A stretch of DNA of 64,000 bases, taken from positions 70,246,001 through 70,310,000 of the forward strand of contig OZ024742.1 of NCBI GenBank assembly GCA_964016885.1, given 5' to 3'. Of the stretch, positions 3,601-56,100 are shown piece by piece. The notes under the pieces were generated by a model, which was given only the letters and a program-made list of their open reading frames with translations, searched no databases and had not been told where the DNA came from. Numbering within the stretch: the stretch's first letter is position 1; every line of letters starts with the position of its first letter. Source of the stretch: Eledone cirrhosa. Taxonomy: Eukaryota. A program made the position numbers and the translations under genes.

Positions 3601-6600
3601 CTGTCTAGATGGTGTTAATCTATTGGGGTTGTGAGTGTCACAACCAGGGAGACAACTCCTGCTACATAACCTCCCGCCAGAATTTTAGAATATAAAAATC
3701 GAATGAAATATGTATGCAGCAGGTTGGCGAGAATGTTGTAACAGGCATGAAAATTACGACTAAAAAATAATGTTTGCAAAAATCAATGATAGATATCAAG
3801 GTAGCCAACCGCTCTTGGCCAGAGAACGACTGGACATCTATCTATCCATCACCCAAAGATACAATGTAACAAAGTAAGAGAAGAGCTCAAAGTTCAAATG
3901 TACAAAATATAGTTCACAGGTGTGCAATCACATGACAGCAGGAAAGAAAGTGTGTTCCAGAGAATGAATGCAGGTGGTTTCTGTTCTGTGGTATATCGTG
4001 AAATTTCCAACCTCCGAATGGATTTTCTCACAGGAAGAATGCTGCAAAAATAAATTCTCTGGCTTGTTCTGCTGGTTTTGGTTGTTCGTGAAGCTGTGTT
4101 GCTGTTGATGTTGTTGTCTCGCGGAGTGAGCGTATTCGGTGTTTAAATTCACAGTAAAAAAATTTTTTTTTTTTTTTCGGACAAAATGAGTTGCGCAAAG
4201 TGCTAGAAATAACAGCCGAAGTTGATGGTCGATGTTGAGAATGCGTTGACCTGGAAGGGTCAAGAGGCCAGCGACCAAAGAATTAAGCATTCTGAATAAA
4301 TGCGCAGTTTTCAACGGCAAATTTACGTGGTAAATTTTTAAACCGGCAAATAGGAGAATATAGCTTAAGGCTGAAGAATCCTTGGCGAGAAACGTTATCT
4401 CTGGCGTGCGGCTATCTCTGTGAGTCGAGATATCTCCGTGAGTTGAGAATTTGTGCTGCCTACACGTGCCAATACAAGGTTAAGTTAGGTTGAAAAAATA
4501 ATATTTCTAACGCGCGAGAAAATGATAGTGCAAGTGTGAAAGTGACAATGATGAAAAAGAAAGGCTTCACTTAGCATAATTATTGGTGTGAACTTTTAAA
4601 AAAAAAAACTTGAACGATGAAGAAAACGATGAAAAAAAAGGCAATGGTTCATCGAAAATAAATGTTCCTGTTGAAATGTTTTAAAAAAAAAAAAATATCA
4701 AATTTCTTTTTTTTTTTGTTTTGAAAGTGTTCGTTGTAAGAAACGAGAAACATATATATATATCGTGAAATGCGACAGTTAGTTGATGCGTGAGAGAAAA
4801 AGTCTGTCTGAACGCGAATTTCACATATGCGTGGTGTGTTCGTTTCTTGGAGAAACATATATATATATACAGCAAACTGCAACAGTTAGTGGATGCATGA
4901 AGGAAAAAGAGTGTCTGCACGAAAGTTTCGCATGTGCGTGTGTGCGTTTCTTTGACTGAGTATGTTCATAGTTTGTCAATAAATTTGCTGTGTATTCGTA
5001 ATGTTACTCACACAACACCAGATTCTGCTATTTTTTTCTTTTTTGGGGGTGACCACTTATAACAATGAACGGCTGCGTGTTCGTATCACGTCAGGGTTAC
5101 CAATATAGCGATGAATGGTTGCGTGTTCGTATCACGTTGGGGTCACCAATTATAGCGAGATACTGGGTTGTATGAATGTAACAAGGAGACATGGTTTGGC
5201 GGAAAACTGGGTTGTATGAATGTAACAATGGGAGACATGGTTTGTGTGTATAATATTTAATCAACAATTTAACAGTATAGTTGACATGTCAATGAATAAA
5301 CGAAAGAATGAAGCAAAGTTAGTAGTTACCGTTTTGATTGCCAGGCAAACGCAGCTGGCAGAAGACACCTGGCGAAGGCCAGGCGCTGGAAGGGCAAATG
5401 AGAGAGTGAGAACTTAAAGTTGTTAGTTTTATAGGGTTCTGACCGGAAGTTACAGAAAGGGTTCTACTTCCTGTCTAGATGGTGTTAATCTATTGGGGTT
5501 GTGAGTGTCACAACCAGGGAGACAACTCCTGCTACAAGAGAAAGGAGCCTTGTAAGGCAAAATGACTGATGCAGTGTATATTGATGGCTGTTCTTCATGG
5601 TAATGCTTTTGCATTTTGTCTGTAATGCATAACTAAGATGTGTTGTTCAACCAAGGGTGTAGAGTATGCTTTTTATTATTTGTTCCCCTTTTTCTTTTTC
5701 ATTTTTTCTTCTTTGTTTTCATATTTTGCAATGTATCTTTGAAAAACTTATTACAATTAGTTGTTCATGGAAACTATTAAAAGATCTGTAAGACAGTAAT
5801 TCTTTCTTTTTCTCTAATTCTTTATTTTCTTAGGATTTTGATGATGATGTATGGGAAACTGTTAACATTTGTAAAGAAGATGTAATGGAAATTCTAACTG
5901 AAGGTAAGGATTTACCATTTTCTATGTATTTTACTATCATATATTGTTTTTTTTATTTTTTATTTTTGTTTTCACCAAACTTTCTCTTTAGGATTTTTTT
6001 GTCTACCACTATTACCCTGAATCTGTTGTACTGCAGTTTTCAAACGTTCCGTTGTCCACAGATATCTCTCTTCTCTCTTACGCTTCACACTCTCCCACAC
6101 CCCCCTCTCTCTCTTTCTCTCTCTCTATATATATATAGGCACCTCTTAACAAAATACACCCCGTCCCACTACCCCCACCCCATCCACACCACCCTTTCGA
6201 TGTAAAGTTATGTTGGTACCACAACATCCAGTCCTAAATAAATGAGGTCGTGTAGGTGTCACGATAAAAAAACACACAATCCACGCTGTAATGTGGCCAT
6301 GTAGGTAACATGATAAAAACCTCCCAGTTCACACTGTAAACGTGGTTGGTGTTAGGAAGGGCATCCAGCCGTAGAAAACCCGCCAGACAGTCCTATACGA
6401 GCAAGACAACCAATCTTGCCTCAAGTGGGACAATTCCCGTCCAAACCCATGCTAGAGTGGAAGATGGACGTTAAACGATGATGATGATGATGATGATGAT
6501 GATATATATCTTTGCAAATTCCATCACATCTAAACATGTAGATATATCACAACAAAATACTCTTTTTAATGCTTAGGATTATATTTCTGTGAACTCTGTA

Positions 6601-26100: not shown

Positions 26101-29100
26101 TGTTGGCAGTAATCCCTTTTTTGGCTAGTTAGCCGAGGACAGGAAGCTCTCAGGTGACTCCTGCTTAGGCAGTGGTAACATGAGGGCCGCCTACCCTCGA
26201 CCGAAATGTTTATGTATATAAGCCCATCCAGCAGCACACGTTCCGGGATCCTAGCTATTCGTTCTGGTGTCATTTGGACCAGAATTTCCAGGCTAGTTCC
26301 GCTGAACAGGTCGCCGGAGGACCTACCTACCGATATTATTGAGTCTTTTTCAAGGTTTAAAAATCCACATAGTACCCACCAAATATCAATATTTGGTGTG
26401 ATACTGTGGATTTTTATTTTCTGTGTGGTGAACAACGGTGACACAATTGTCGACACAGAATATTTCTGTGCCGTCAGTTGGTCTTTCATCAGAATGGATA
26501 AACTCTCGTAGAGTCTACCCTTCTGAATGAATGCAATGTCTTTTAAGGCATCTTCTAAAACCAACTCAATTTCGCCTTGTGAAAGTTGAGTCGGTTTTCG
26601 GGTTTTGTTTGAGACTGTCCTGAAAACCACAGTTTTCAAAGCAGCTTCTCTTCGCAAATCTGGGCGAGAGTTTATGGAGAATGATCTGTTCTCCCCAAAA
26701 GTTATGTACTGTCTGGCGTTATTCAAAAGCTCATTTGCATTTGAAATATTTCTGAAATTGATAAGATAGCCTAGTAAAAAGTGTTGCCCTAATCCCACCA
26801 TATTTCTGGGATTCTGTTAACTTTTTTTTTACAGTTTTACATATATTTTGCTGTGTTTGCATTGCACTATAGCATCTTAAATAAATAAAATACATTAGTT
26901 AATGTATTCACTGACTGTGGTCATGGCTAGAATACTTTTGGTCATAGATATGCTCAGCCAATGCTGACCTGAGAGTTAAACAACATAGAGGGAGATATAT
27001 AACACTTGTTAGGTAACACTACAAATGTTTGTGTATATTCAATTGATGCTATAATCTAACTAAATTTGTATATTATAAAAGATAAACAGGCTTAGTAGCT
27101 GTGAGGTTATGGTGATGGAGTATTAAACAATTAACAACAAGGTCTTAAGTTCAGTTCTTACTACAGCTGTTGTGCTCTTGTTACCTAAGCAAGACAATAA
27201 ATTCAGCTATTCCAGATTACCTGATTGAACAAAGGATAGGTTCCTCTCCTTATTTTACAGTTGAGTAATTAGTGATTTAAAAATAAAAAAGCATTTATCC
27301 AGCTGCAAAAAAACATTTGCTCAAACAAACCCCATCTATGGAAGAATGGATATAAAACAGTCAAAATACACCATTTTGTTTTATCTAGTTTTTTTTTCAT
27401 TATTTTTGATAGGTTACCTTCTTTATCTGCTTATATCTCATATATTCACAAGACAATTTGTCAATTTCAAACACTCTTCTAGAAGAAACTTAATAGAAAT
27501 GAAGCGACACTAGATGTGTGTGCGTAGGTGTGTATAGGTGTTATTTTTATAGCTAATTGCTCTATCTACCACTAATCACTTAACTACAAATGTAAGCACA
27601 GCTGAGTGGTTAAAAAATTTGCTTTGCAATCATGAGATAGTGGCTATGATCCCACTGCATGGCATCTATCATAGCCTTGTGAGTGATATTGGATAGACTG
27701 TACCTGTAAGTCAAAGGTCCAGCCTTGTCACATATTGTGTCACACTGATTCAGCTTGGGACTTACATGAAGCCTACATGTGCCTGTAGAATATTTATGCA
27801 TTAATTTACAAGCTGGGTGGTGGATTGGCAGTATCGGTGGAGGGTCGGACGCCATGCTTTCCAGCATAGTTACGTCCCTTTACGATCTGAGTTCAAATCG
27901 CGCCGAGGTTGACTTTGCCTTTCATCCTTACGGGGTCGATAAAATAAAGTACCAGTAATGCACTGGGTAATTGCTGGCCTTGTGCCTAAAGTAGAAACAA
28001 TTAATTTACAAGCTGAATGTTCAGTTGATAAAACAACTGAATGCTCATCATTAACATCATTGGAGGATCCATCAACTATGAAGAACAGAATGGAATTTAT
28101 GTTATGTTTGTAAGACAAATTGAAGAAGAATTTGAATCCTTGTTCATGGATGCAATATAATGACAATAGTAAGGTTTGTGTGAGAGATAAGTTAGTGTTA
28201 ATATGTCGATCCCTTATCTTGGCCGAACGCTTGTTTTTGAGAAATGTAATGTATTTCACCATATTTTCTTGTTCCTAGTCCATTCACATATCAGTATTAT
28301 ATCGTCCGTTTAACTTAGAATCCAATCTTTTCAATGTTATTCGATAATTCTGTCAGACCCTCGAAAACAATCTTCTACTTGTATTTAAACTCTGATTACT
28401 GTTATATGCTCGTTTGTATTTAAACTCTGATTACTGTTATATGCTCGTTTAATTATGGCCGAATTTCTAGGATTATATTATAAAATAACCTTCTAGACGT
28501 TTCGCGAAACTTCTTCCTACTCCCTTCTCTGTTTAGTTAATGTGTTTATGGTCTGATTACTGTTATATGCTCGTTTAATTATGGCCGAATTTCTAGGATT
28601 ATATTATAAAATAACCTTCTAGACGTTTCGCGAAACTTCTTCCTACTCCCTTCTCTGTTTAGTTAATGTGTTTATGGTCTGATTACTGTTATATGCTCGT
28701 TTAATTATGGCCGAATTTCTAGGATTATATTATAAAATAACCTTCTAGACGTTTCGCGAAACTTCTTCCTACTCCCTTCTCTGTTTAGTTAATGTGTTTA
28801 TGGTCATAAGGTTCCAGTTTATCATGCTGCGATTTTTCAGCCATTTTTGCCTGTATCCTTTCAATGGTTAGTACTTGTTTATTGCTATGTTCGAACTGAA
28901 CAAACATACTGACACTTATATACCTACCACTGTAGCCACACTATTTAATTTCCTTTATCACAGGTAGTCCGTATGCTGCATTGCCCCTAACTTAAATCTT
29001 GAAATTTGACTGGTACACAAAATCTTGCAAAACATACCCACTTTCTCAGACCACATAGATTTATCACATTTTTTCACAATTTATATCCGTGTTTAGATTT

Positions 29101-32100
29101 GCTTACTTAAACGTTATTTGTCCACTATTTATCGTTCTCCCTGGTTAATTTTCTAAAAACAATGCCCCCAAGAAAAGAACTTTCATTGGTCAATTATCTA
29201 ATGATGCAAGTAGGTCTAAGCGAAGGCGTCTCACCGAAGATGTAAATGCGACTGCGATCAGGCTCTCACAGAATGCTGTGCAGACGGCAGCTGCAAGAGC
29301 GGAGGAGGATGACAGTCAACGTGAACTTTGATGGAACAAAGATGCTGCCGCGACTGCTGCTGCTCGCGCACGAGAGGATGAAGGACGATGTGCCGTTTGA
29401 CGTAGCAGGGATGCCACTGCAACATTTGCTGCTCGCACTCGAGAGGATGAAGAACGGCGCACCGTTTGATGAAGCAGGGACGCCGCTGCAACATTCGCTA
29501 CTTGCGTTCAACAGGGCGAAGGACGACGCACCGTTCGACGAAGCAGGGATGCCACTGCTGCTGCATGAAATACTGAAACCATAGAGCAACGAAGTGGCCG
29601 ACTTCTGCAAAGTGAACAGCGGCGATCATTGTTACGTGGCATTTCTAGGACTTGCAATTCACGATGGTTGTTGAAGGCCTTTAACTACGACCCCTCCTCC
29701 GACTACGCCATCCATGCAGATATTCAAATTGGGGAAATGACCTCTACTTGCCAGTTTTGTCATATGAAAAAGGGGCCAGAGGAGAGAGATGGAATGTGCT
29801 GTTCAAACAGTAAAGTTAGACTACCTCCTATTCACGACCCTCCAGAGACATTGCAACTCCTTTTGACAGACACGAAGGAGGAATCATCGAAGTTTCTGCG
29901 TAATATCTGCTGCTACAATTCCGCGTTTCAGATGACATCCTTCGGAGTAAAGCTTGCCTCGGAACGTGGGTGCATGCCAACTTTCAAGGTCCACTTGATT
30001 GGGTCTATTCAGCCTCTGGCAGAAAAGTATCCTCAATTTCTTCAGTTGTACTTCGTTGGAAACTATCAGGAGCAGGCAGAGATGCGAAACTCTATTTCGT
30101 CCGAAACTAACATTGGAACCATAATAAAACTTCAAGAAATGCTTCATGACAAAAACAGCTATGTTCACAGTTTCAAGTATGCTTTGGAGACAGCCACCAA
30201 CCAAAACTTTAGTGTGGTCATACATGCTGACCGAAGGCCATCTGGAGAACACGCTGGTCGGTTCAACGCACCAACATATAATGAGATTGCTGCGGTTATT
30301 TGTGGTGAACAGCACAAGAGAGATATCATTCTAAAGCACCGAGACAGCACATTACAGCATATCAATGAGACACACAGGTCCTACGATGCACTCCAGTATC
30401 CATTGCTATTTGTCAACGGCGAGGACGGATACCATTTCGGCATTCCTCAACATTCAGCAGGCAATGGTGAGGCACATCTTAGCAAAACTGTCACCTCCAT
30501 GGATTTCTAAGCTTTCCAATTTATAGTCAGGGACAATTCATTCAACCATCTACACCGTTCTCAGGACCTTTTCCAACAATTTGCTGTTGATATGGCCGTT
30601 AAAATGGAGTCCGAGAGATTATGGTTCATTAAATTAAATCAAAAGAAACTTCAATCTGAATGCTTCATTCATCTACGCAATGGAATTAATAACGACGTAT
30701 CCCCAGACAATTTAGGGCAAGTGTGTATTTTGCCTTCAACATTCACGGGGGACCCCGATACATGCACGAGAGGACACAGGACGCCATGACTTACGTACAA
30801 CATTATGAGCACCCCAACCTTTTCATAACGTTTACATGCAATCCCAAGTGGAAGGAGATTCAACCGAACTGTTCCACGGTCAAGCGCCAAGACACAGGCA
30901 CGATCTCATAGCAAGATTGTTTTGCCTGAAATTATCGAAATTAATGGATTTATTAAAGAAAGGACAGGTTTTTGGGCCTGTCAGGTGCGACATGTACACG
31001 ATTGAATGGCAGATGCCACATGCCCATATCTTGATTTGGTTGGTTACAAAAATCAGTTCAAACTACATCGACAAATTCATTTCTGCCGAACTACCTGATC
31101 CGTCGATTGACAAGGACTCTTCTCTATAGTCACATCAAACATGGTCCATGGTCCTTGCGGACATGGACCCAATATGAAGTCCCCATGCATACACGACGGA
31201 AAGTGTACAAAACGATATCCCAGGTCGTTTTTACAGAAAACACAGACTGGCGGTGATGGATATCCGTTGTATAGGCGCAGGAGACCTGAAGACGGTGGGT
31301 TCACAGCAAAAGTTGGTCAGCGCGAAATCGACAACAGCTGGATAGTGCTATATTGCCCCCTCCTCTTGAAAGCGTTCAATGCCCATATAAACGTCGAATT
31401 TTGCAACTCAGTAAAATCAATTAAATACGTTTGTAAGTATGTAAACAAGGGATCGGATGCTGCCGTCTTTGGTCTTCGTCACGAAAACAGTAGAGACGAG
31501 GTATCTGACTACCAAGCAAGCCGATACATTAGCAGCAATGAAGCCTTTTGGCGCATTTTTAGCTTCCCACTGCACCAACGACACCCCGTCATTAAACAAC
31601 TTGCCATTCACCTTGAAAACGGTCAATAGGTGTATTTCAATGATGCAACAGCTGCTCAGCTAGCGATCTCACCAAACGAAACTACACTCACCGTTTTTTT
31701 CAAACTTTGTCTACCCCAACTCCCCCACCCCCATCAACACCACCCCTTTCTCTGTAAAGTTATGTTGGTACCACAACATCCAGTCCTAAATAAATGAGGT
31801 CGTGTAGGTGTCACAACAAAAAAAAACATGCAGTCCACGCTGTAATGTGGCCATGTAGGTAACACGGTAAAAACCTCCCAGTCCACACTGTAAACGTGGT
31901 TGGTGTTATGAAGGGCATCCAGCCGTAGAAAACCTGCCAGACAGTCCTTTACGAGCAATCTTGCAAGTGGGACAATTCCCGTCTAAACCCATGCTAGCGT
32001 GGAAGATAGACATTAAACGATGATGATGATGATGATGATATATAATGCAAAATAGTGTTTACAAAATAACTAACTATAAATAAGTATGTCAATATGACAA

Positions 32101-38100: not shown

Positions 38101-41100
38101 GTAGATTTCTTAGACATTAATTTAGACCTTCACACACACGCCTACAGACCTTTCCATAAGTTTAACGAAAAATCAATTACATTCACAAAGACTCATGCCA
38201 CCCTCCCACTGTTTTTAGAAACTTCGTAAATAATATCAGTACTAGAATTTCAAACCTTTCTTCTAATAAGGCTATCTTTGACAGAGCGGCACCTTACTAT
38301 AACACGGCGTTAGCTAACAGCGGCTTCTCGCAACCTATCACTTACTCTCCCACTAACAACAACAGCAATAAGAAAAGAAAGCGTAACAATAGACAAACTA
38401 TTTGGTTCTTTCCTCCCTTCTCACTCAACGTTAAAACCAATGTAGGCAAAAAATTTCTAGCCCTCTTAGATAGACACTTTCCCATAGGTCATAAATACCG
38501 CTCCATCTTTAACCGACACAAAGTAAAACTAGGATACTCCTGCGCTAAGAACATGAAGACCCACATCACCAACAGCCCTAAGAGCAACACTCCACCAGAG
38601 TGCTCTTGCCATAAGCCCGAAGCTTATCCCCTTCAACAGCAATGCAACACACCTGCTGTAGTTTATGAAGCTGTGGTCACTTCCAACCGACCAAATCAAC
38701 TACAGGAGGTCAAATCCTATGTGGTTATGGCAGAGGGCCGATTTAAGGAACGCTTCCTGAACCACCAGTCGACCTTTAGGTACCCGGACAGACGTTCATC
38801 CACAAAACTCACGAGCTATGTATGGTCCCTCAAGGACTCAAGTATAGACTACTCCATTCAATGGAAAGCCATCACTAAGTCCAAGCCATACGCAAGGGGC
38901 AATCCATTGTGTGGACTATGTATTGATGAACAAATAAATATTCTAAAGAGATTACGCAATAGCGATTGCCTAAACTCAAGAAATGAATTCTTCACACATT
39001 GTCCACACGTCTGGAAACACCCCTTACATAACTACAAAGCTCCGGATTGAATTACAACATCCTAATTTTCTTATCAACTAGAAACTTTTGGACTTTCGCA
39101 GTTATCTCTTACACCTCTTGCACGCAATTTAGTATTGCCTGAGGGAAGTGACCATTTCTACGCATGCGCGTTCGTATGGTTGTCCTTCCTGTTCCATATA
39201 ACCATGTCCATTATGAGCTGAGGATCCGCTAAGGTGAAACAATTGTTCTCGGTATGGTGAACTAACTGTTGTGTAACCACTTCTACCTGACTCGTCTCAT
39301 GGACTGAGTGCTCTACCACTACGGATATTACGTTCTAGTGTTCTACCACTATATATATATACACACACACACACACATCTGTCACACTTTAAAATAAGGT
39401 TTCTCTTATGCAAACCATAAACTTATCAAAACACAAATTTCCCAGTTAGTATGATTGTTCATATCTGGTAATCCTGGTATATATGGCATCTCAATTCTGT
39501 ACTCTTATTGATGATTTCTAACATAAGTCATAAATTTGTAGGAAGGAGTGTAGTATATATTGGCCTTCATATTTGACTGGTATCTTATTTTATCAAACTG
39601 TGAAGGATGAAAGATAAAATTATGTACTATGGGATATGAACTCATTATAGAAAAGGACAAAACCAATTACTGCAGAGCATTTATGCTGATGTTCTACTGA
39701 TTTGATTATCCACTACTGTAAAAAAATAATAATAATTCTTTCTAATATTGACACAAAGCCAGCAATTTGCAGAAAGGGGAAAGTCAATTATATCAATCCA
39801 CTACTTGACTGGTACTTTATTTTATCGAATTCAGAAGGATGAAAGACAAAGTTGACCCCAGCAGAATTTGAACTCAGAACATAAAGAGCCATAACAAAAT
39901 GACACTCCAATGATTCTGCCAATTCACTAATAGTAATAATAATTTCTCATTTAGGCATAAGGTGAAGGTCAGCGATTTGTAGTAAGAGGAAAGTTGAATA
40001 ACAATAAGCAGGATTTGTAAAATAAGCTGAAGACTAAAAATTAAAGAGACAAGTGTAGTAGTTTAAATTGCAACCAATATATTGCTGGTATTTATTTTAT
40101 CAAAGCTGGAATGATTAAAAGCAAAGTTGGTATAATAACATATTTATACAAGATTGTCTTTAATTATCTTTAATTATCTATATTGATTTACCTGTTATTT
40201 ATTGAATTTTCATTTACCTGTTATTTCTTGAATTTTCTTTTAGAAAACAGTAAAAAATGTGTCTCCTACAACAAAAGATAAAAGGAGTACTTCACACATA
40301 TGTAAGTTGCTTTTTCACTTTTGGGGATTTGTTTTTTTATTAAAGATAGTCATTGTTGGCAGCTTTCCTTATTGAAGTCTCAGGTGGTGCATATGATGGT
40401 ATTTAGCTATTCAAGCACATTAGCCTCACTACTGCCCATGCTAATGCAGTGAATGGAAAGAGATACTTAAAAAAAAGTTTTAATAGAGAAACACCAGCAT
40501 TCATCATCATCATCATCATCATCGTCATCGTCGTTTAACGTCTATCTTCCAGGCTAGCATGGTTTTAGACGGGAATTGTCCCACTTGAGGCAAGATTGGT
40601 CGTCTCGCTCGTATAGGACTGTCTGGCAGGTTTTCTACGGTTGGGTGCCCTTCCTAACACCAACCACGTTTACAGTGTGGACTGGCAGGTTTTTACTGTG
40701 TTACCTACACGGCCACATTACAGCGTGAACTGTGTTTTTTTTGTTGTGAGAGAGGTGTAAGTGTGTAAGGTCGGAATTTATCAAATCGTCCCAGGTTTTT
40801 CTGGGTCTGCCTACTCCGTAATTTCCGTCAATTTTGATTGCCCTGCACTTTTTTTATACAGCTCTCATCTTTCATGCGCATCACGTGACCATACTAACGT
40901 AGTCTTCTCTCGAGTAAACAGCATCTGATCCCTCTTATACCTAATTTCTCACTTAGTTCATTTATGCTTTGGTGTTCACATATATTACTATTACACATCC
41001 AGTGGAGCAAGCATGCTTCGTTCCTCTCCAGTCTGCGCAGATTCTCTGCACACAATGCCCATGTCTCACTGCCATGTAACATAGCTGTTCGTATGCAGTC

Positions 41101-44100
41101 TGCCTTTCATTTTTAGAGAGAAACCTTTAGTGGCCAATAGTGGTATAAGCTCTCTGAACTTTTTCCATCCTGTTCTGACTCTGGCTACTGTACTTTCTGA
41201 GCACCCTCCACAACTGCTGATTTTGTCACCCAGGTAATGGAAGGTGTCCACCATTTCTATAGAGCCATCTGGGCAATAGAAGGAGCTAGTATCCTGTGGG
41301 CACTTGCTACTTATTGGACCTGAGCACCGGCCACATATAAAATCTACATTCTTAGATAGCTCACCTGTGATCCCACTACATCTTTTATGCACCCATACTT
41401 TGCATTTGGGACATAAAATGGAGTTTCTGCCTACTCCTTTCCTACACACTGAGCATGGCCATTTCCCAGAGGGGACCTGTGCCCTATTTTCCTTACTACA
41501 TACTAGAACTTTAGTCTTAGACAAGTTAACTTTAAGGCCTTTTGATTCTAGGCCATGCTTCCATGTTTGGAATTTCTTCTCTAGTTCAGCCATCGATTCA
41601 GCTATGAGCTATCATCTGCATAGAGAAGTTCCCATGGGCAGCCAGTCTTGAACTTCTTTGTTATAGCCTGAAGGACAATAAAAAATAGGACGGGCCTAAG
41701 GACAGAGTCCTGATGAACACCAACTTTTACGCTAAATTCTTCACTATATTCGTTGTTAATTCTAACCTTGCTGACTGTTTCTTTATACATGGCTTGTATA
41801 GCTCTCACGAGCCATTCATCAACCCCTAGTTTTCTAAGGGCCCATCAGATAATGGCGCAGGGGACTTTGTCAAAGGCTTTCTCCAAGTCAACAAAGGCTA
41901 AGTATAGGGGTTTACTTTTAGCTAGGTACTTCTGTAGTTGTCGTACAAGTTGTGGTACTTTTACCAGACACAAATCCAAACTGCATTTCGTCTGGATCAA
42001 TTTGCTCTCTGATTAGTTGCGCTATAACTTTTTCTGTGACCTTCATGACCTGGTCAATTAATTTAATGCCTCTATAGTTTCCCCTATCTAGGGCATCTCC
42101 TTTACCCTTGTAGCAGTTAATGATAATGCTGCTATGCCAGTCATTTGGTATGACCCCATTCTGTATGACTTGGTTTACTATCCGGGTGACCATAGTGTGT
42201 TCCACCATTCCAGATGCTTTCAGCAATTCAACAACTATCTCCGAAAGCCCAGCTGCCTTGCCTGTCTTCATATCTTTGATTGCCTTACTTATTATACTAC
42301 CTTCAACTTGCACTGCTGGTCCTTCTATTGGATCGATGTGGGGCAGACTATCTTTTCCCCATTTATTCTTCTCATTTAGTAGCCTCTCGTAGTGACACTT
42401 CCAAGCTACCTTCTTATCAGCGTCAGTGATGGCAAGTACACCGTCATCATTACAGACACACTTCTCCTCGACAATATCACGGTTTTCCTTGACACATTGC
42501 CTAGCAATCCTGAACACCTCACGTTTTTGGTCCTCGCGTTGTAGAACATGCTTGAACTTTCTTTCCTCTGCTTCCCTTCTTGCAAAGTACACTTGCTTCC
42601 TAGCTTCCCTCCTGGCCACTTGATAGTCTTCTCTACTTCCCCCATCTCGCCATACTTTCCAAGCCTGCTTTTTGGCCTTGATTGACTCCTCCACCTTACT
42701 GTTCCATCACCATGTTACTCTCCTCCTGCCTATAGGTCTGCTCCAGCCACAGATTTCATCTGTTGCCTTCAGCAGGTTAACTTTCAGGAAATCCCACTGT
42801 TCCTCTATATTGTACGTCTCTAATTGCTCTTCCTTACTGTCAAAAGCATCAAGTAATATGCTTTTAAATTTATTACTGGCTGATGAATGGAGGCACATGG
42901 CTTAGTGGTTAGAGCATTGACCTTGCAATCGAAAGGTTGTGAGTTCAATTCTCAGACCGGGTGATGTGTTGTTTTCTTGAGCAAGACACTTTATTTCACA
43001 TTGCTCCAGTTTACTCAGCTGTAGAAATGAGATGATAGGGACTGGGGTCCCTATCATTCCACTGCAAACTGGTCGTGGAGGTGCCATTGCAAAAAAGCAC
43101 CCAGCACTCACTGTAAATGAGGTTGGTGTTAGGAAGGGCATCCAGCTGTAGAAATCAAGCCAGAATCAGTTCCCGTCCCACCCTTGCAAGCAGGGAAAGG
43201 TGGACGTAAAATGATGATGATGATGATAATGTGTGGTCCTTTAACTTCCATATTCTTCTCCTTAGGGTAGTCCTCCTCTGTTGTCGAGTACGTCTCGTCC
43301 TGACTATGAGGTCGCTAACTATGAGGCTATGTTGGGAGGTGTATTCTTCACGGAGGAGGGATTTAGTGTTTACAACAGACACTCTGTCATGTCTTCTGGT
43401 AAGGATATAATCTATCTGACTGGCGTTTTCCCCTGACTTATAGGTGATCAAGTGATTGTCTCGTTTTTTTAAGTTAGTGTTACAGATAGTTAGGTTATTT
43501 GCGTCACAGAATTCCAGGATTCTGGAGCCTTCCTCATTTCTACTACCAAACCCATAACCTCCATGGATTCCGTCATAACCGTCACAATGTTGTCCAACAT
43601 GACCATTTAGGTCACCAGCAATAATTTTGAAGTGACTGTCGGTTATTTGGGAGGTAGTGAGCATTAGCGACTCATCGAATCTGTCTTTTATAACGCCAGG
43701 CAGTCCGGATTGGGGTGCATATACGGATTTTATTGTCACAGTAGTTCTATTGAGGACAAATCTTATTTTAATTATTCTGTCATTCCCTCTATTTACGTCT
43801 ATTACCCTTATCTACCCATTTTTCTGTTAACATGATTCCTACTCCACCCAGCCCATTGTCATTTCCACCCAGAAAAGTTTATAGCATCGTTTTTTATCCA
43901 CAATGAATCTAGCAGACCCACCCCTCTTGAACACAGCAAACATTAACTTCCTTACGTTCAAGCATCTCTACAACCTCGTTGAGTGACCTTTTAAAGTGCC
44001 TACATTCATGGTACCAACTCTGAAGTTTTGGATTGCGTTTGGTGGGTGGGAAGGATGGGACGCAGGGAGGGGTGAAGGAGATGGGGTTATGTTAGCCATA

Positions 44101-47100
44101 CGCGGCCAAAATAAAGAGGAGTCCTTGCATTCTCGTCCGGCAACATGAGGTGAATATATCTTTATCATTGACATTGTCATTGAGTGTCCAGATCTTTCAG
44201 ACTCTCCAGAATTCTATAGTCCATCAACCAGGTCTAAAATTAAGGAGTGATAGCTGAGCAGTGGTTTTGTGAAAGAGATTGGTAAGAGAAATATATTATA
44301 GCCGCTGAATTATGATTGGACCAAATAATAATGGTGGCGTGTGTGTGTGGGGGGGGGGGTCTGGGGGAGTAAGCGAGAAGGTTATTTTATAATATAATCC
44401 TAGAAATTTGGCAATAATTAAACGAGCATATAACAGTAATCAGAGTTTAAATACAAACGAGCATATAACAGTAATCAGAGTTTAAATACAAGTAGAAGAT
44501 TGTTTTCGAGGGTCTGACAGAATTATGGGAGTTTAAAATACAAGATTGTTTTGAAGGTCTGACAGAATTATCGAATAACATTGAAAAGATTGGATTCTAA
44601 GTTAAACGGACGATATAATACTGATAGGTGAATGGACTAGAACATTGTAATGTGTAATTGAGTGTGTGTCTTTTTGAATCTTCTTTATTGGTTTGTTTCT
44701 TTTGCAAACCATAAATATTATGTAATGAAATATATAAGTTATTGTTCCTTTCATACTTTTGTATTATATAAACAGGTTTTCTTAAATCAATCATCATCAT
44801 CATCATTTAACATCTGTTTTCTCTGCTAGCAAAGATTAAACGGGTCATCACTACTGACTTTTTATATGTTCCTGCACTCTACAAAGCATCCTCCTCCACC
44901 ACTAATTAGGCCACCTAGGTATCAAAAACTGTTAACAACTTCTAGTGAGCCTCCCAGGCAATTGAAGTAGTTTAATTTACGTATGTTCTTAGTGCTTACT
45001 TCTCTTGTGTATCTATCACATACAAAATCTATCTTCTCCATTAACCTGCCTATAATTCCACGACATCTCGTGTGCACCTAACAGAATTTCTACCCACTCT
45101 TTTTTGAAATAGGAAAAAGGACTTAAAGCTAAGTTTACTTTTCAGCCTATCAATTCTAGGTTTTTCTTCCACTTTTGGAATGTTGCCTCTAACTCTCCCA
45201 CAGATTCAGCTATAAGAACTAGAACATCAGCAGACAGCAGTTACCACTCCATGCATATTTTTATATATGTATATTTATATATAACATCTTGTTCTTTTTA
45301 TATCTGCACTCACTTTTTAAATGTTATTTTCACACCACATGGACGCAATTTGAAATTCTTCCTCTGGTCAAATATATAGCTTTTTGTACAGTGTGAGACA
45401 TATATGAAGACAATCTCCACCAATGAGTAAAATTTTGTCTTTTAATGATAGTTGGTAATCTATAATAGATTACTTAGATCAATATTTTGCATTAATCTTT
45501 GATTTTATGAAATGGCCATCTGGAGATCTATAAATTTAGTACCCCATTAAAGTATGTATATTTTCCTACATATTATTTACTCTTTATATCATCATCATCA
45601 TCATCGTTTTACGTTCGTTCTTCCATGCTAGCATGGGTTAGACAGGTTGTCCTGTTGTGGGCAGTGTCTAGTCGGCTGACCATGCCTTGCTCATACAGGA
45701 ACTGATTTAACTGTACAAATTTATGTGTTTCTCAAAATATATATGCCTTTTACTCCTCTCTCTATATATATCTTTTAAACTTGTATAATTGATGCTCTGA
45801 ACTAAGAACTAAAAGGTTCCTTGAGATTTGTTATTGAGAAACATGATTGTTACATATTTAATATGTATCAATACCTTTACATAGTATATATATATATATA
45901 TATCACATATTATACTCTGCTCTGTAAGAGCACCGAGTGCCCAAATGGCCTACCGCTTATGGGTGCTTTAAGCATCTTACACCAATTATATATATATATA
46001 ATATATATATATATTTGAATTTCGTATTTTTAAAGAAATACGGTATGTTTATAAATAAACATTTAGAAAGCCATAGCTATGAATGACACTGACAGTTAAT
46101 GCCACCAAGCGGTGTTTGGCAGAAGCAAGGGGGACAATTGTCGATGCATTTTGATCCCTCCCACTCTTGCAACTGCTGAACTTTGAAAACAGGCGAAAGT
46201 ATATAGTTTTTATTGTCTGTGTAAATGAAGCGATTAATCTCATTTGCATATGAAGCTGTATAAGTTGGCTTAACTTAATAATAATAATGAAATATTGTGT
46301 ACAGTGCTCAGGTGCACTACAACTCATCAAAAAGTGTATGTATAGTACATAGGGTAATGTACAAACGTCAGGAAAATGAACAGTGCATGAGTCATGATAT
46401 ACACAAGTGTGCATGTGTATGGAAGGAGTACATCAGGTGTAGTTAATATAGAATAGAATTAGAATTTAGCTTCGAACATAGCTGTATACAAATATGTATT
46501 TGAATTTCGTATTTCTAAAGAAATACGGTATGTTTATAAATAAACATTTAGAAAGCCATAGCTATGAATAACATATATATATATATATAATGTTTGTGTG
46601 TTACACGATCACTAAGTTAGACTGTTGCAGGTGTTGTGTAATTATAGTCAAGTATGTCAGGATTATTAATTAATAAATGAAATACTGAATAACAACCTTT
46701 CAGCCTCAGTGTTTATTCCAAAACCTAAGCTCACTCTGTATATATACGTGTGTGTCAGCATGTTTGTTTGTCTCTGTGTCTTCACCTTGTACTTGATATC
46801 ACTAGCACAAGCAATGATGTTTTTAATGCATAAACAGAAGTTCCATAGCTTAGTTATTAGAGATGCAATAATTCATACCTTACTTAAAGAAATGTAAGGT
46901 TTGGCTTCAAGCAAGGTATACATCTGCAGAATTTTGCCTAAAAAAGCCTCCGTGAATCTGTGCCAACATGGAGAAACAACAATAACAAAATAGGATATTC
47001 TTCTTCTTCTTCTTCTCCTCATTATTATTATTATTGTTATTACTCTTTGAGTCTCAGTCATTGATGTTAGTTAACTGGAAAGTTTGTTGAAATGAATATC

Positions 47101-50100
47101 AAGCCACTACCTGCAGCCTCAGATATTCAGGATGTATCGGAGGGTTCTTGCTGTTCCCAGCAAGCATGCCTTTTGAAGCGTTCCAAAAAGCGTGAAGGGG
47201 CCAATTTTCTTTAACCATCCCTGGAAACTTTTTGAGATAGTCCCTAGTGCGCCTATGACAATCGGGATCACTTTGACTTCATGGCAGTTCCAAATTCTTT
47301 TTACCTCCCACTTTAAGTCATGGTATCGGTTAATTTTCTCCCTCTCCTTCTCTTGCACTCTCGTGTCGAATGGGCAGGCTACATCCACAATCAGGCATGA
47401 TCTTTTTTCTTTGTCCAAAACCACCAGGTCAGGTCTATTGTGTTCCAGTTTCTTGTCCGTCTGTATCCTAAAATCCCACAGCACCTTCACCTGATCGTTT
47501 TCTATCACCGCCTCTGGCTTATGCTCATACCACTTCTCAGAATGTGGTAAATTGTTTACTTTGCATAGGTGCCAGTGGATCACCCTGCCCATCACATCAT
47601 GTCTCCAGCCCTTATAGTGAGTCTGGGCTAGGTGTTTACACTCGGATACAATGTGAGCCACAGTCTCCTCTTTCTCTCCACAGATCCTGCACAGTGGGCT
47701 AGCCTCCTCCTTGTAAATGTGGTGTTTCAACCACTTCGTTTTGAGGGCCTGCTCCTGTGCAGCCATTAACATTCCTTCTGTAGCCTTTTTAAGGTCTCCT
47801 CTTTTCAACCAGTTCCATGTCTGTGGATCTCTAAATTCAGTTCTCTCAAAGAAGGTACTATGAAGGGATTTTTCCTGAAGGCTGCTCTTTCTCCTTGATG
47901 TTATTTCCTCCTTGGACATCCCCTGGCCTATTGTCCCCTCCTTCAGTACAGTTCTGAGCATTGGCTCCTTACTATCAGTCACGTATTTGTGTAGGTTGTT
48001 TTTCTCCATCTGAACACAGTCCTCTATGCTGATAAGACCTCTTCCACCCTCAGATCTCCTTAAGTAGAGTCTATCGACATCACTCCTCTTGTGGAACATG
48101 TTGTAGATAGTCAATTCTTCTTCTTCTTCTTCTTCTTCTTCTTCTTCTTCTTCTTCTTCTTCTTTTTCTTTTTCTTCTTCTTCTTCTAACTACTGATGAG
48201 ACTTGTGGCTGGAACAGGTACATTCTACTCCTATGACTACCACCCTCAATGTTGGTACCCTGAAAAATAAATCAGGTGAAATTGTGGAACTGTTAAAGAT
48301 GAGAGAAGTGGATGTATGCTGTATACAAGAGGTGAAATGGAGGGATGCCCTCAGAGAAACTACTCACATGTAAATAACATGCATACAAACTTTACTGGGT
48401 AAGAAATGATGGTGGGGTAGGTAGTGTAAGCATTCTACTAGCTGAGAAATGGATAGATAAGGTGATAGAGGTGGTTAGAGTAAGTGACAGAATTATCAAG
48501 CTTAGAATAGCTGTAGGAAATAGAATGGTGACAATTACATCTAACAACACACCACATGTGGGACTCTGTAAAGAACAAAAGGACAGGTTCTATGAGAAAT
48601 TTCTACAGACAGCTTTAGTTACTGATGAAAGAGACCTCATCATCCTGGCAGGCGACTTCAATGCCCATGCTGGACATTAACAAATTAACAAGACAGATTC
48701 AGTGGAGTCCATGGCAGCTATGTTTATGGATCAAGAAATGAAGAGGGAGTGAGGCACCTGCAATTCTGTGACACAAATGAACTAACCATTTGCAACACAA
48801 ATTTCAGGAAACCGGTTAGCCATCTGATCACATACCAATCAAGCGAACAAACAAGCCAAATTGATTTCTTACTTGTAAGATGAGATAATCCACTGCAATG
48901 AATACTAAGGCCTTCCCTGGGGAAGAATCATCATCATCATCATTTTACGTCTGCTTTTCCTTGTTTGCAAGGGTGGGACAGGAACTGATTCTGGCTTGTT
49001 TTCTACAGCTGGATGCCCTTCCTAACACCAACCTCATTTACAGTGAATGCTGGGTGCTTTTTAGCCATGGCACCTCCACGACCACTTTGCAGTGGAATGA
49101 TATGGACCCCAGTCCCTATCATCTCATTTCTACAGCTGAGTAAACTGGAGCAATGTGAAATAAATTGCTCAAGAAAACAACACATCCCCTGGTATGAGAA
49201 TTGAACTCACAACCTTTTGATTGCAAGGCCAATGCTCTAACCACTAAGCCATGGTGTTGCCAAATACAAGTTAGTTATTAGTGATATCAGAATAAACATT
49301 TAACGAGCATAAAAGTTTGTCGATTTTATTTAGTGTTTACGTTATTTAGTCATCAATTTAGGAATAAAATAATTAAATGAAACATGCTGAAATATCTCAC
49401 ACTAGTGTCTATAATTGTCTCATCTGTATTGATATGAGTGCATGTTACAACTTGGAAATAAGACATACCTTTTGAAATAATATAATGTGTATAATTTGTA
49501 TTATTAGTTGTAGAATTGGCAACGAGGTGAGAGAAAAAGTTAGTCTCCGCATAGTATTATTGGTTTTCTGTTCCGAAGCCTGAGAGAGAGTTTCTCTTAA
49601 TATGTTCACTCCACATGGTGTGGGTGAAATGAAAAGTGGGAGAAGGCAAAATTACATATTAACTCCTGGACGGCTAGCTTTGTAAGAGAGCGGGTACTTT
49701 CAGTTTCTCAATTTATAGTCTCCATGGGACGTAACTCTCATTAACTCTCCTTCTCGACCCAATACCCTCCTCCAGACGGTAGGCAAACAACCCGAAGGTA
49801 ATTGTAGCGAACCCGCAAGAATGGGATCAAGGCAAAGGTATGAAATATACATACACAATACACAAAAAAGAAACTCTATAGTTAAAGAAAACTTTCAACT
49901 GTTAAGAAACAAGGTAAAGAAAAGCATGTAATATACAATACAAAAAAGGCTCCATAGTGGCCAGTTCAGATGAAAACTGTTTGACAAAGTCTTTTGGGCC
50001 AGTGGACTCTTCAACCAGAACGGGTCGTGGACTTGTATGTAGGTGAAGGTGGGGCAGAAGGAGCAGGTGTATGTACAATAGAGAAAGATGGGGATATTTG

Positions 50101-53100: not shown

Positions 53101-56100
53101 TGTCGTTTCCCGACTTCACAAAAGAACAAGGCTGTACACAGTGGTTCGCGTTCTCAGCAAAACGCTCATGGTACCAGCATAAAGATGGGGCGGTGTCTGA
53201 AAGAGGTAAATCTACCGCGGCTGCGTGAGCGCGAATGAGCATTACCAGAGGCCTTCAACTTCTGTAGCTCGAGGGTGAGTTCTTGAATAGCTTTTTGAAT
53301 AGCCATTATAGCTGTGCTGTCTGCATGAGTTGCCGCACAGGAGGCATGGCCAGGTGTGGTCTGAGCTGGGGGAGAAACAGCAGCAAGGGCCTCGCTGGCT
53401 CAAGCACCCATGACCCCAAAAACCTCTGCAGAGGCAGCCAGTTGGTCCACAGAACATGTATCCCTAATGGGGGCCAAAATTGTTTGAACGTTGGTCGGTA
53501 GCTGCGAGAAAAACAACTGCTTCAACATCGTGGTTTCTTCTACCAACCCCTCTGTTAGGTCATTCATCCGGCGTAAGAGGTCTGATGGAGTGCCATCCCC
53601 GATATGCTCTAAATGAACCAGAGCTCTAAAGCGTTTCTCGGCGGACTGTGCAGTCTGGCTGAGTATTTCAGTCTTCAACGACTTGTAAGTAGCGTCAGTA
53701 TCGGCGATGTTGTTAGCCTCGAAAAATGCTTCTGTTTGAGCGAACCATAATTTCACGTCGCCCGTATAAGTAGGGAGAATAGATTGAGCTGCCATTGGTG
53801 CAATCTCAGTAAGCGGCAAAATGCATCTCCGTAAAGAAAAATATCTTGAACACAAGGGAAAAAGAAAATAAACCCACTTGTTTTATTTATTTATTTTTTT
53901 TTTTTTGTCTTTTCTTCAAACAACCGGACAGGAAAAAGAAATATTGTGTAAATGAGCGACTAAGCAAATAATGGCATTATCAATACATCTACAGAGAACT
54001 TAATGCAAAAACCAACATGGCGCACTGTTTTGCGCCAAAAAACTGTTGAAGAAGAAAGCAGCCATGTTGACATCTTTAAAAATTTCAGCAAAGGAAAAAA
54101 AAAATCGTCTAACACTTTTTTTTTTTTTTTTAGTAGTATATTTTCCATATACCAACGTCTGGGTCACCACTTTAATGAGCATAAAAGTTTGTCGATTTTA
54201 TTTAGTGTTTACGTTATTTGGTCATCAATTTAGGAATAAAGTAATTAAATGAAGCATGCTGAAATATCTCACACTAGTGTCTATAATTGTCTCATCTTTA
54301 TTGTTATGAGTGCGTGTTACAACTTGGAAATAAGACATACCTTTTGAAATAATATAATATGTATAATTTGTATTATTAGTTGTAGAATTGGCAACGAGGT
54401 GAGAGAAAAAGTTAGTCTCCACATACTGTTATTGGTTTTCTGTTCCGAAGTTGAAGTCGCCTGAGAGAGAGTTTCTCTTAATATGTTCACTCCACATGGT
54501 GTGGGTGAAATGAAAAATGGGAGAAGGCAAAATTACATCTTAACTTTTGGACGGCTATCTTTGTAAGAGAGCGGGTACTTTGTTTCTCAATTTATAGTCT
54601 CCATGGGACGTAACTCTCATTAACTCTCCTTCTCGACCCAAGGAGTCACTACAAACACAAGACAGAACAAGATACGCAGGAAAATTGGACATGGAGTGTT
54701 TGGAACTAAAGGACCTTTCAATTAAATACAGGTAAAGAAAGGCCCTACAGAATGCAGTTGATGAGAGGGGTGACAAGCTAGATACATATAACATGGAGGG
54801 GAATTGGAAATTCATGTGTGAACTACTGATGAGATTTGTGGTTGGAACAAAGTACCAGCCAGACAGTGGGTGACCTTGTGGTTGAATAGAACAGTGGATA
54901 GAGTCATTAAGGCCAAGAGACAGGTGTAGAAAGACTGGGAAAATAGAGGTAGCAGAGATCGGTACCAGGTAGCTAAAAGAGAAGCTAGACAACAGGTCAA
55001 CACAGCTTGGAGAGAGGCTGAAAAAAAGAAAGTTTACCAAGTGTTTTCATTGCAAGGCAATATATCTGTGAATCGGGATGTTTTTTTTGGGGGGGGGGGG
55101 GTTAGAAATGACACTGGTGCACTTAGCACCGATGATGCCTAAAAGAAAGAAGCCTGGAAATGTTACTATGAATGGCTGATGAATGAGAGGAGAAAATACC
55201 CCAAACTTACCCAACAGGAGGACCAGCTTTTGTAGTTGATAGTTATAGGGTCAAAGAAGCAATCAAGATGAAGAATGGTAAAGCTATGGGACCGTCAGAG
55301 ATAGTTGCCAAGGTGCTAAAAGCATTGGGAGAAGAAGTCAAACTAGTTATTCACATAGTCAATCAGGTAATACAGGGTGGTTATACCCAAAGACTGGAAC
55401 AGCAGTACAATCATAAATTGCTACAAGTGCAGAAATGAGGCTCTAGAAAATAGCAACTATAAAGGAATTTAACTAATGGACCAAGTTATGAAAGTGAGGA
55501 AAAGAGTTATAGCACAGCTAATTAGGAAAATAGTCAAATTAGACATGTAGTTTGGTTTCATGCCTGGGAAAATTAATAGTGAGGCAACTACAAGAGAAGT
55601 TCCCAGCCAAAAATAAGCCACTATATTTAGCTTTTGTTGATCTAGAAAAGGCCTTTGACAGAGTACCTCGATCTATTATCTGGTGGTCCATAAGAAAATT
55701 AAGTGTAGAAGAATGGCTTGTGAGAGTAGTGCAAGCCATGTATAGAGGAGCTGTCAGTAAAGTGAAAGTAGGAAATGAGTTTAATGAGGAATTCAAGGTA
55801 CAGGTAGGAGTTCATCAAAGTTCAGTTCTTAGCTATTCATTATAGTCTCTATGTAATAACAGGGGAGTTTAAGACCAGCTGTCCATGGGAACTTCTCTAT
55901 GTGGATGAACTGGTCCTAAAAGTTGAATCCATAAAAGAGAATAAATTCTGACTATGGAAATGGAATTTGGAATCAAAAAGCTTCTGAGAGTAAACTTAGC
56001 CAAAATTAAAGTGCTAGTAAGTAAGGAAAGGGTCCTGCTCAATATGTAAAAAAGGAGTGAGCATAAACTCTATACGGTTTACACAAGGTAAATCTTGGAT

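What the first reader, a model, noticed from the sequence alone, without database searches (positions are those of the whole stretch)
28171..32039. Helitron Rep gene enclosed by RTE-LINE ends: candidate retro-mobilised rolling-circle/LINE chimera
Seen: 28270-28494 is the near-identical reverse complement of 44375-44644, the distal leader of the near-full-length RTE, including the same 35-bp duplication. It is followed by 3x126-bp repeats and a Helitron ORF from its ATG (29162) through the HUH Rep motifs. The ORF breaks off at 31710, before the helicase, and joins directly, in the same orientation, to the RTE 3'UTR and (GAT)n tail. A possible degenerate TSD flanks the unit: ATATAATGACAATAGT (28155-28170) vs ATATAATGCAAAATAGT (32040-32056). 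Inference: either a bipartite non-autonomous RTE carrying an HUH nuclease as cargo, or a template-switch chimera made by RTE machinery on Helitron RNA.
Basis: partly seen in the sequence, partly recalled or inferred. Interest (0 to 1): 0.75.

Follow-up and report, generated by a model that had tools for sequence, protein, structure and literature searches.

The report
One-off Helitron piece inside LINE ends
A broken 2.9-kb middle piece of a rolling-circle transposon sits between the two ends of a retrotransposon at a single place in this genome, likely left by one DNA repair or nesting accident, and it has not spread into a family.

Summary
The layout is real: LINE 5' leader (28204-28532), Helitron piece (28783-31711), LINE 3' UTR with (GAT)7 (31711-32039), all in one orientation. 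The leader is a true LINE leader monomer (19 of 19 other loci run on into the LINE), not a free repeat. The family reading fails. Each junction occurs only here. The Helitron piece is internal: about 1.8 kb of 5' end and the helicase are missing. Rep is dead (7 stops, 4 frameshifts, motifs in three frames). The pieces are as decayed as ordinary copies (3-4%). The flanking duplication is modest (15 of 17, p about 0.005) and lies 33 nt off the leader, as in two other copies. The 35-bp duplication exists only here and in the LINE 16 kb away, and the Helitron piece shares patches with two copies 2-3 Mb away; both fit later local gene conversion. Best reading (0.55): a full-length LINE copy whose interior was replaced by Helitron DNA, through gap-filling or nesting plus deletions. 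A double template switch by reverse transcriptase stays open (0.33). The scan noted tandem RTE leader monomers and a one-off U1/RTE chimera elsewhere in this genome. Low interest.

The parts
28155..28170 (+). Left copy of the possible target-site duplication
   Evidence: 15 of 17 match to 32040-32056, p about 0.002-0.006 in three nulls
28171..28203 (+). 33-nt spacer of unknown origin between the duplication and the LINE leader
   Evidence: No match to this part among 40 scored genome hits; longest local exact match 13 nt; offset duplications also in L079 (90 nt) and L084 (37 nt)
28204..28532 (+). LINE 5' leader, upstream-monomer type, from the monomer start; holds the 35-bp duplication (28379-28450)
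   Evidence: 19 of 19 other loci with this sequence continue into the LINE; 28495-28532 matches the upstream monomer of two-monomer copies
28428..28805 (+). Three identical 126-bp units, each 105 bp of LINE leader plus 23 bp of Helitron: a later triplication of the left junction
   Evidence: 100% match; junction pattern found 3 times in the genome, all here
28783..31711 (+). Internal piece (positions 1808-4841) of a 7.5-kb canonical Helitron, cut at both sides
   Evidence: 3.2% from the family majority against 2.6-4.0% for 6 copies
28907..28963 (+). Predicted branch point and splice acceptor in the Helitron 5' UTR (read by eye, untested)
   Evidence: Consensus-like sequence; acceptor AG present in 19 of 19 copies; conservation in a young family does not show use
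29162..31711 (+). Dead Rep reading frame; the three Rep motifs start at 30828, 31016 and 31423 in three different frames; 9-bp deletion just before the HUH motif
   Evidence: motif names are recalled
31711..32039 (+). LINE 3' UTR (last 330 bp) and (GAT)7 tail (32019-32039)
   Evidence: 4.0% from the majority against 3.1-7.8% for 13 copies; junction pattern unique at up to 2 mismatches
32040..32056 (+). Right copy of the possible target-site duplication
40500..44645 (-). Neighbouring, separately inserted copy of the same LINE; the only other carrier of the 35-bp duplication
   Evidence: its two flanks are continuous in 2 copies of an old repeat, so it is a clean insertion

Best explanation
This is a single, decayed composite in which the interior of one LINE copy was likely replaced by Helitron DNA after the LINE had inserted. 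Shown: LINE leader, internal Helitron piece and LINE 3' end lie in one orientation, both junctions have 1-2 nt of overlap and occur once in the genome, and Rep is inactivated. Inferred: a two-monomer, near full-length RTE-like LINE inserted here and left an offset target duplication. About 3.8 kb of its interior was then lost and 2.9 kb of Helitron took its place, either by one gap-filling repair or by a nested Helitron insertion followed by two deletions across the Helitron ends. Later the left junction was triplicated by slippage, and short gene-conversion tracts passed between this locus and nearby copies. The unit makes no enzyme and has left no copies.
For: Junctions unique. Helitron piece lacks both termini. 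Overlaps of 2 nt (left) and 1 nt (right) match the median of 2 bp reported for gap-filled single-copy Pack-TIRs (PMC8277862, passages). Large deletions are common here: 3 of 20 leader-bearing LINE loci lack 0.9-2.6 kb of interior, and a second Helitron copy shows three internal gaps and ends in a LINE-type tail with no further helicase sequence in 8 kb. The piece starts about 150-180 bp upstream of a predicted splice acceptor, so it may hold intron sequence (weak). Local DNA exchange is evident: the leader pair is the closest of 190 pairs (1.4%, median 6.1%), and the Helitron piece shares 16 derived bases with each of two copies 2.1 and 2.9 Mb away, the top 2 of 406 pairs. 0 of 36 private substitutions are A-to-G, so there is no RNA-editing mark.
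Against: Same orientation, intact LINE ends and similar ages of all parts are equally expected from a template switch. No single donor Helitron was found: sharing is patchy, split between two neighbours and nearly absent from the first 900 bp, which points to later conversion and so does not decide the origin. The nesting route needs three events. None of the 3 internally deleted LINE copies has foreign filler. The intron is only predicted. The target duplication is imperfect.
Confidence: 0.55

Rival explanations
1. Double template switch: the LINE reverse transcriptase primed on its own tail, stalled after about 330 nt, copied 2.9 kb of Helitron RNA, then finished on the LINE leader, all in one insertion.
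For: All parts in sense orientation; both outer ends are LINE ends with a TSD-like pair; parts are of like age; the right junction lies in the C-rich stretch where other copies also start or break. U6/RTE chimeras and triple chimeras are described (PMC4476161, passages).
Against: Two switches are needed; the Helitron piece starts and ends inside the element, apparently within a predicted intron; no splicing-type deletion and no A-to-G mark. PMC4476161 itself notes that tripartite structures can also come from two separate events.
Confidence: 0.33
2. Two unrelated LINE insertions on either side of a Helitron were brought together by deletions, and the flanking match is chance.
For: A Helitron cut off by a LINE-type tail occurs at another locus; the window is dense in this LINE family; the duplication is imperfect and 33 nt off.
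Against: Match reached by about 0.5% of null trials; offset duplications occur in L079 and L084; both outer ends are the natural ends of one family.
Confidence: 0.07
3. The leader at 28204 and the LINE body at 40750-44645 were one element, split by inversion.
For: The private 35-bp duplication is in both; the parts are non-overlapping consecutive stretches of a two-monomer element.
Against: The flanks at 40500 and 44645 are continuous in 2 copies of an old repeat, with a few bases at most gained or lost. That excludes one inversion, and two inversions would need a break exactly at a primary insertion junction. No other flank pairing beats the present one.
Confidence: 0.03
4. A mobile family: a bipartite non-autonomous RTE that carries an HUH nuclease as cargo.
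For: It keeps both LINE ends, as bipartite RTE derivatives do (PMC5786205, passages).
Against: No second copy of either junction after about 3% divergence; Rep dead.
Confidence: 0.02

Closest known systems
Single-copy Pack-TIRs formed by gap-filling (PMC8277862, passages)
   Same: Single copy; element ends enclose a filler; 1-2 nt overlaps; no transposition needed
   Different: Ends are those of a LINE, the filler is another transposon, and no single parental copy was found
LINE template-switch chimeras, U6/L1, U6/RTE and tripartite forms (PMC4476161, passages; bioRxiv 10.1101/2025.02.02.635956, abstract and outline)
   Same: Foreign sequence in sense orientation 5' of a LINE 3' end, inside a TSD-like pair
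   Different: Cargo is 2.9 kb of Helitron interior, not a small RNA or spliced mRNA; a LINE leader follows on the 5' side; RNA origin not shown
Bipartite non-autonomous RTE elements such as RTESINE1/2, WALLSI3, Bov-A (PMC5786205, passages)
   Same: 5' and 3' parts of one RTE-type LINE kept, coding interior lost
   Different: Those are short multicopy families made by internal deletion; this is single-copy with foreign filler
Non-allelic gene conversion between neighbouring Alus (PMC8230782, passages)
   Same: Neighbouring copies share derived changes
   Different: Range given there is about 10 kb; here 16 kb for the LINE leader and 2-3 Mb for the Helitron, where local hopping may contribute

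Membership tests
Bipartite non-autonomous RTE family | Keeps 5' and 3' parts of one LINE family | tested here: met
Bipartite non-autonomous RTE family | Many copies with the same internal junction | tested here: not met
   Left junction 3 hits, all in the local triplication; right junction 1 hit
Bipartite non-autonomous RTE family | Simple internal deletion without foreign filler | tested here: not met
   2.9 kb of Helitron between the ends
LINE template-switch chimera | One target-site duplication around the whole unit | tested here: inconclusive
   15 of 17, 33 nt off the leader, p about 0.005
LINE template-switch chimera | Cargo in sense orientation joined directly to the LINE 3' end | tested here: met
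LINE template-switch chimera | Cargo copied from RNA (spliced, transcript ends, editing marks) | tested here: inconclusive
   No intron-type deletion, 0 of 36 private changes A-to-G, predicted acceptor kept; transcript structure unknown
LINE template-switch chimera | All parts arrive together (empty orthologous site) | not testable with these tools
   The genome has no relatives in the genome search
Gap-filled single-copy element (Pack-TIR type) | Single copy with short junction overlaps | tested here: met
Gap-filled single-copy element (Pack-TIR type) | Identifiable parental copy, usually on the same chromosome | tested here: inconclusive
   Two same-contig neighbours share patches, none the whole piece
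Gap-filled single-copy element (Pack-TIR type) | Terminal inverted repeat transposon ends | tested here: not met
   Ends are LINE leader and tail; it works like one, it is not a member
Canonical Helitron (parent family) | 5' TC, 3' hairpin and CTAG, Rep plus PIF1 helicase | tested here: met
   Seen in full-length copies; definition recalled
Canonical Helitron (this unit) | Own termini and intact RepHel | tested here: not met
RTE clade (parent LINE) | Single ORF of about 1,050 aa with AP endonuclease and RT, short 3' repeat tail | tested here: met
   (relatives carry PF03372/PF00078/PF00628); definition recalled
RTE clade (parent LINE) | RT groups with named RTE elements in a tree | not tested
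   No named reference among the 120 listed homologues; the label RTE rests on architecture and recall

The most novel reading that the evidence does not exclude
A LINE reverse transcriptase copied 2.9 kb of Helitron Rep RNA between its own tail and its own leader in one insertion, a triple chimera in which retrotransposon machinery packaged a rolling-circle nuclease gene between both LINE cis-ends; a fossil of a route by which LINEs could gain an HUH domain.
Probability: 0.33. Interest if true: 0.4.

Novelty: new member of a known kind. Interest (0 to 1): 0.2.

Why it matters
As it stands it is transposon debris: one dead locus. If the RNA route were proven it would extend LINE template switching to long DNA-transposon transcripts with a return to the LINE's own leader, a step towards hybrid elements. 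The side result may be worth more: transposon copies up to a few megabases apart on one chromosome share patches of derived bases, which bears on dating repeats in this genome.

Tried and rejected
Family search by both junctions: none (the tool warns that counts of repeats are lower bounds). Single Helitron donor: the 15-bp deletion is shared with one copy 2.1 Mb away, the 9-bp deletion with none, and overall identity to that copy is ordinary, so no single donor. Inversion models: rejected. Assigning the neighbour's body to one or the other 3' UTR by shared changes: no diagnostic sites. Sequencing runs: no RNA holder listed. Contigs of X1 and X3 bridge 28203|28204 and a low-depth X1 contig matches 29732-29806 exactly, but no listed piece spans the two chimeric junctions (tables were cut). 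The 7.6% divergence printed for the leader is an alignment artefact of the 35-bp and 45-bp repeats and was replaced by pairwise counts. Pfam found nothing in the 313-aa and 172-aa Rep fragments. The protein atlas gave no result. Paper searches listed no LINE-ends-around-Helitron element, judged from titles and abstract openings only; PMC6007223 was seen as abstract only and PMC13282606 as passages, neither bearing on the origin; no supplements were read. Earlier-findings look-ups near the locus and by words were empty.
Full report
Place and approach. The window is G000:C3:70246001-70310000 in a 3.0-Gb assembly. An earlier, unchecked note of this scan calls the genome an octopus. I read the region, searched the genome with each part and each junction, and compared the parts with other copies.

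Left part. The query 28171-28420 had 429 candidates, 40 scored. All 19 non-self loci fetched continue into the 5' UTR and ORF of the LINE seen at 40500-44645, so this is a LINE leader. Homology starts at 28204, where L008 and L012 also begin, with L015 and L020 within a few bases. The family leader is built of tandem monomers of about 420-450 bp. After 28494 the window follows the upstream monomer to 28532. The LINE has one endonuclease-RT-PHD frame, and its relatives are proteins of about 1,050 aa without names. The label RTE rests on this architecture and on recall; no tree was built.

Middle part. 28783-31711 is positions 1808-4841 of a 7.5-kb element with TC-type 5' ends, a 3' hairpin and CTAG, a Rep domain and a PIF1 helicase, a canonical Helitron by the recalled definition. 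39 of 39 other hits start at 28783-28787, and 18 of 19 fetched share further Helitron sequence upstream that the window lacks. 39 of 39 other hits stop at 31711-31717, and 19 of 19 fetched read on as Helitron. The ATG frame stops at 29243. The Rep frame has stops at 29329, 29398, 29467, 29470, 29566, 30508 and 31627 and frameshifts near 29164, 30746, 30860 and 31116, plus deletions of 15 and 9 bp. The three Rep motifs lie in three frames.

Junctions. Left: 2 nt shared by leader and Helitron. The junction pattern has 3 hits at up to 1 mismatch, all in the local 126-bp repeats, which each hold 105 bp of leader and 23 bp of Helitron. The three units are identical while the parts are about 3% from their families, so the triplication is later. 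Right: 1 nt shared; 1 hit at up to 2 mismatches. There is no family in this assembly. Read support is partial: contigs bridge the 5' flank junction, none listed bridges the two chimeric junctions.

Target duplication. 28155-28170 and 32040-32056 match at 15 of 17. The score was reached in 88 of 19,922, 44 of 19,885 and 113 of 20,000 null trials. Of 16 near full-length copies, L079 and L084 show clear duplications 90 and 37 nt upstream of the leader; L089 shows a microsatellite-like one; the rest show none or only TA runs. An offset duplication is therefore in character, and one LINE insertion footprint is the likelier reading.

Age. Against the majority of other copies: Helitron piece 90 of 2,826 (3.2%; 6 copies 2.6-4.0%), 3' UTR 12 of 302 (4.0%; 13 copies 3.1-7.8%), neighbour's RT half 62 of 2,125 (2.9%; 10 copies 2.3-4.3%). 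Both families spread at about the same time and the unit has decayed like any other copy.

The shared 35-bp duplication. It occurs twice in the genome, at 28400 and 44441, and this leader pair is the closest of 190 pairs (3 of 220; median 6.1%). I tested whether the two were one element split by inversion. Two copies of an old repeat run straight from the 44645 flank into the 40500 flank (2 of 9 loci fetched for this), so the neighbour is a clean primary insertion and inversion is rejected. The neighbour cannot be the sole donor of the leader either, since it lacks 28204-28269 and the upstream-monomer end. A short conversion tract between the inverted leaders fits; conversion between neighbouring Alus is reported within about 10 kb (PMC8230782, passages). 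A shared rare source inserting twice is not excluded.

Helitron mosaic. The 15-bp deletion is shared with one copy 2.1 Mb away. Over 29720-31711 the piece shares 16 derived bases with that copy and 16 with a copy 2.9 Mb away, the top 2 of 406 pairs among 29 sequences; together they cover 30 of 57 derived bases, while the two neighbours share 3. The first neighbour was picked for the shared deletion; the second was not. Sharing comes in alternating short patches and is nearly absent from the first 900 bp. In the 5' part several top pairs of 378 are also same-contig neighbours. This shows local DNA exchange or local hopping. It does not single out a donor and does not decide the origin.

Mechanism. 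DNA route (0.55): single-copy Pack-TIRs are reported to form mostly by gap-filling, with a same-chromosome bias and a median overlap of 2 bp (PMC8277862, passages). Here 3 of 20 leader-bearing LINE loci lack 0.9-2.6 kb of interior, none with filler, and 1 of 73 Helitron-bearing loci shows another Helitron-to-LINE-tail join with no helicase remainder in 8 kb (loci overlap in part). The piece begins upstream of a predicted acceptor (by eye). RNA route (0.33): orientation, ends and ages fit, and U6/RTE and triple chimeras are described (PMC4476161, passages). But two switches are needed, and 0 of 36 private substitutions are A-to-G, a mark that earlier notes report in other LINE copies of this genome (unchecked); its absence is weak evidence.

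Comparison and verdict. Bipartite RTE derivatives are multicopy products of internal deletion (PMC5786205, passages); this unit fails that test. Five paper searches listed no element of this layout, judged from titles and abstract openings; no supplements were read. Interest 0.2.

Noticed in passing
window 29710-31630; G000:C3 near 72.36 and 73.12 Mb: Helitron copies 2-3 Mb apart on one contig share alternating patches of derived bases (16 each, top 2 of 406 pairs); several other top pairs are also same-contig neighbours. Long-range gene conversion or local hopping.
   Followed up: partly
L078-L097, first 1,100 bases: The LINE leader is a tandem of 420-450 bp monomers with an inner 45-bp repeat; several copies begin at or near the monomer start, and many sit next to (TA)n runs.
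   Followed up: partly
L079 and L084 flanks: Duplications of 30-38 bp of the 3' flank lie 90 and 37 nt upstream of the LINE 5' end, with spacer sequence between.
   Followed up: partly
L134-L153: 12 of 20 Helitron loci stop matching at window position 29705-29708, suggesting a common internally deleted non-autonomous derivative.
   Followed up: no
L155-L156 (G000:C1 near 211.8 Mb): Another Helitron cut inside the helicase and joined in sense to a related LINE 3' end with 48-nt tandem repeats; no Helitron remainder within 8 kb.
   Followed up: partly
window 40749-40750 and 42883-43229: The neighbouring LINE lacks about 236 bp of 3' UTR and carries a 347-bp nested insertion of short repeats.
   Followed up: partly
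window 57062-57632 and 57879-58058: A LINE of another subfamily is 99.5-100% identical to a copy near G000:C3:73.13 Mb: very young.
   Followed up: no
window 3283-3666 / 5153-5536 and 49299-49762 / 54171-54641: Two local direct duplications, 384 bp at 99% and 473 bp at 94%.
   Followed up: no
L076-L077: Two Helitron pieces in opposite orientation about 8.5 kb apart.
   Followed up: no
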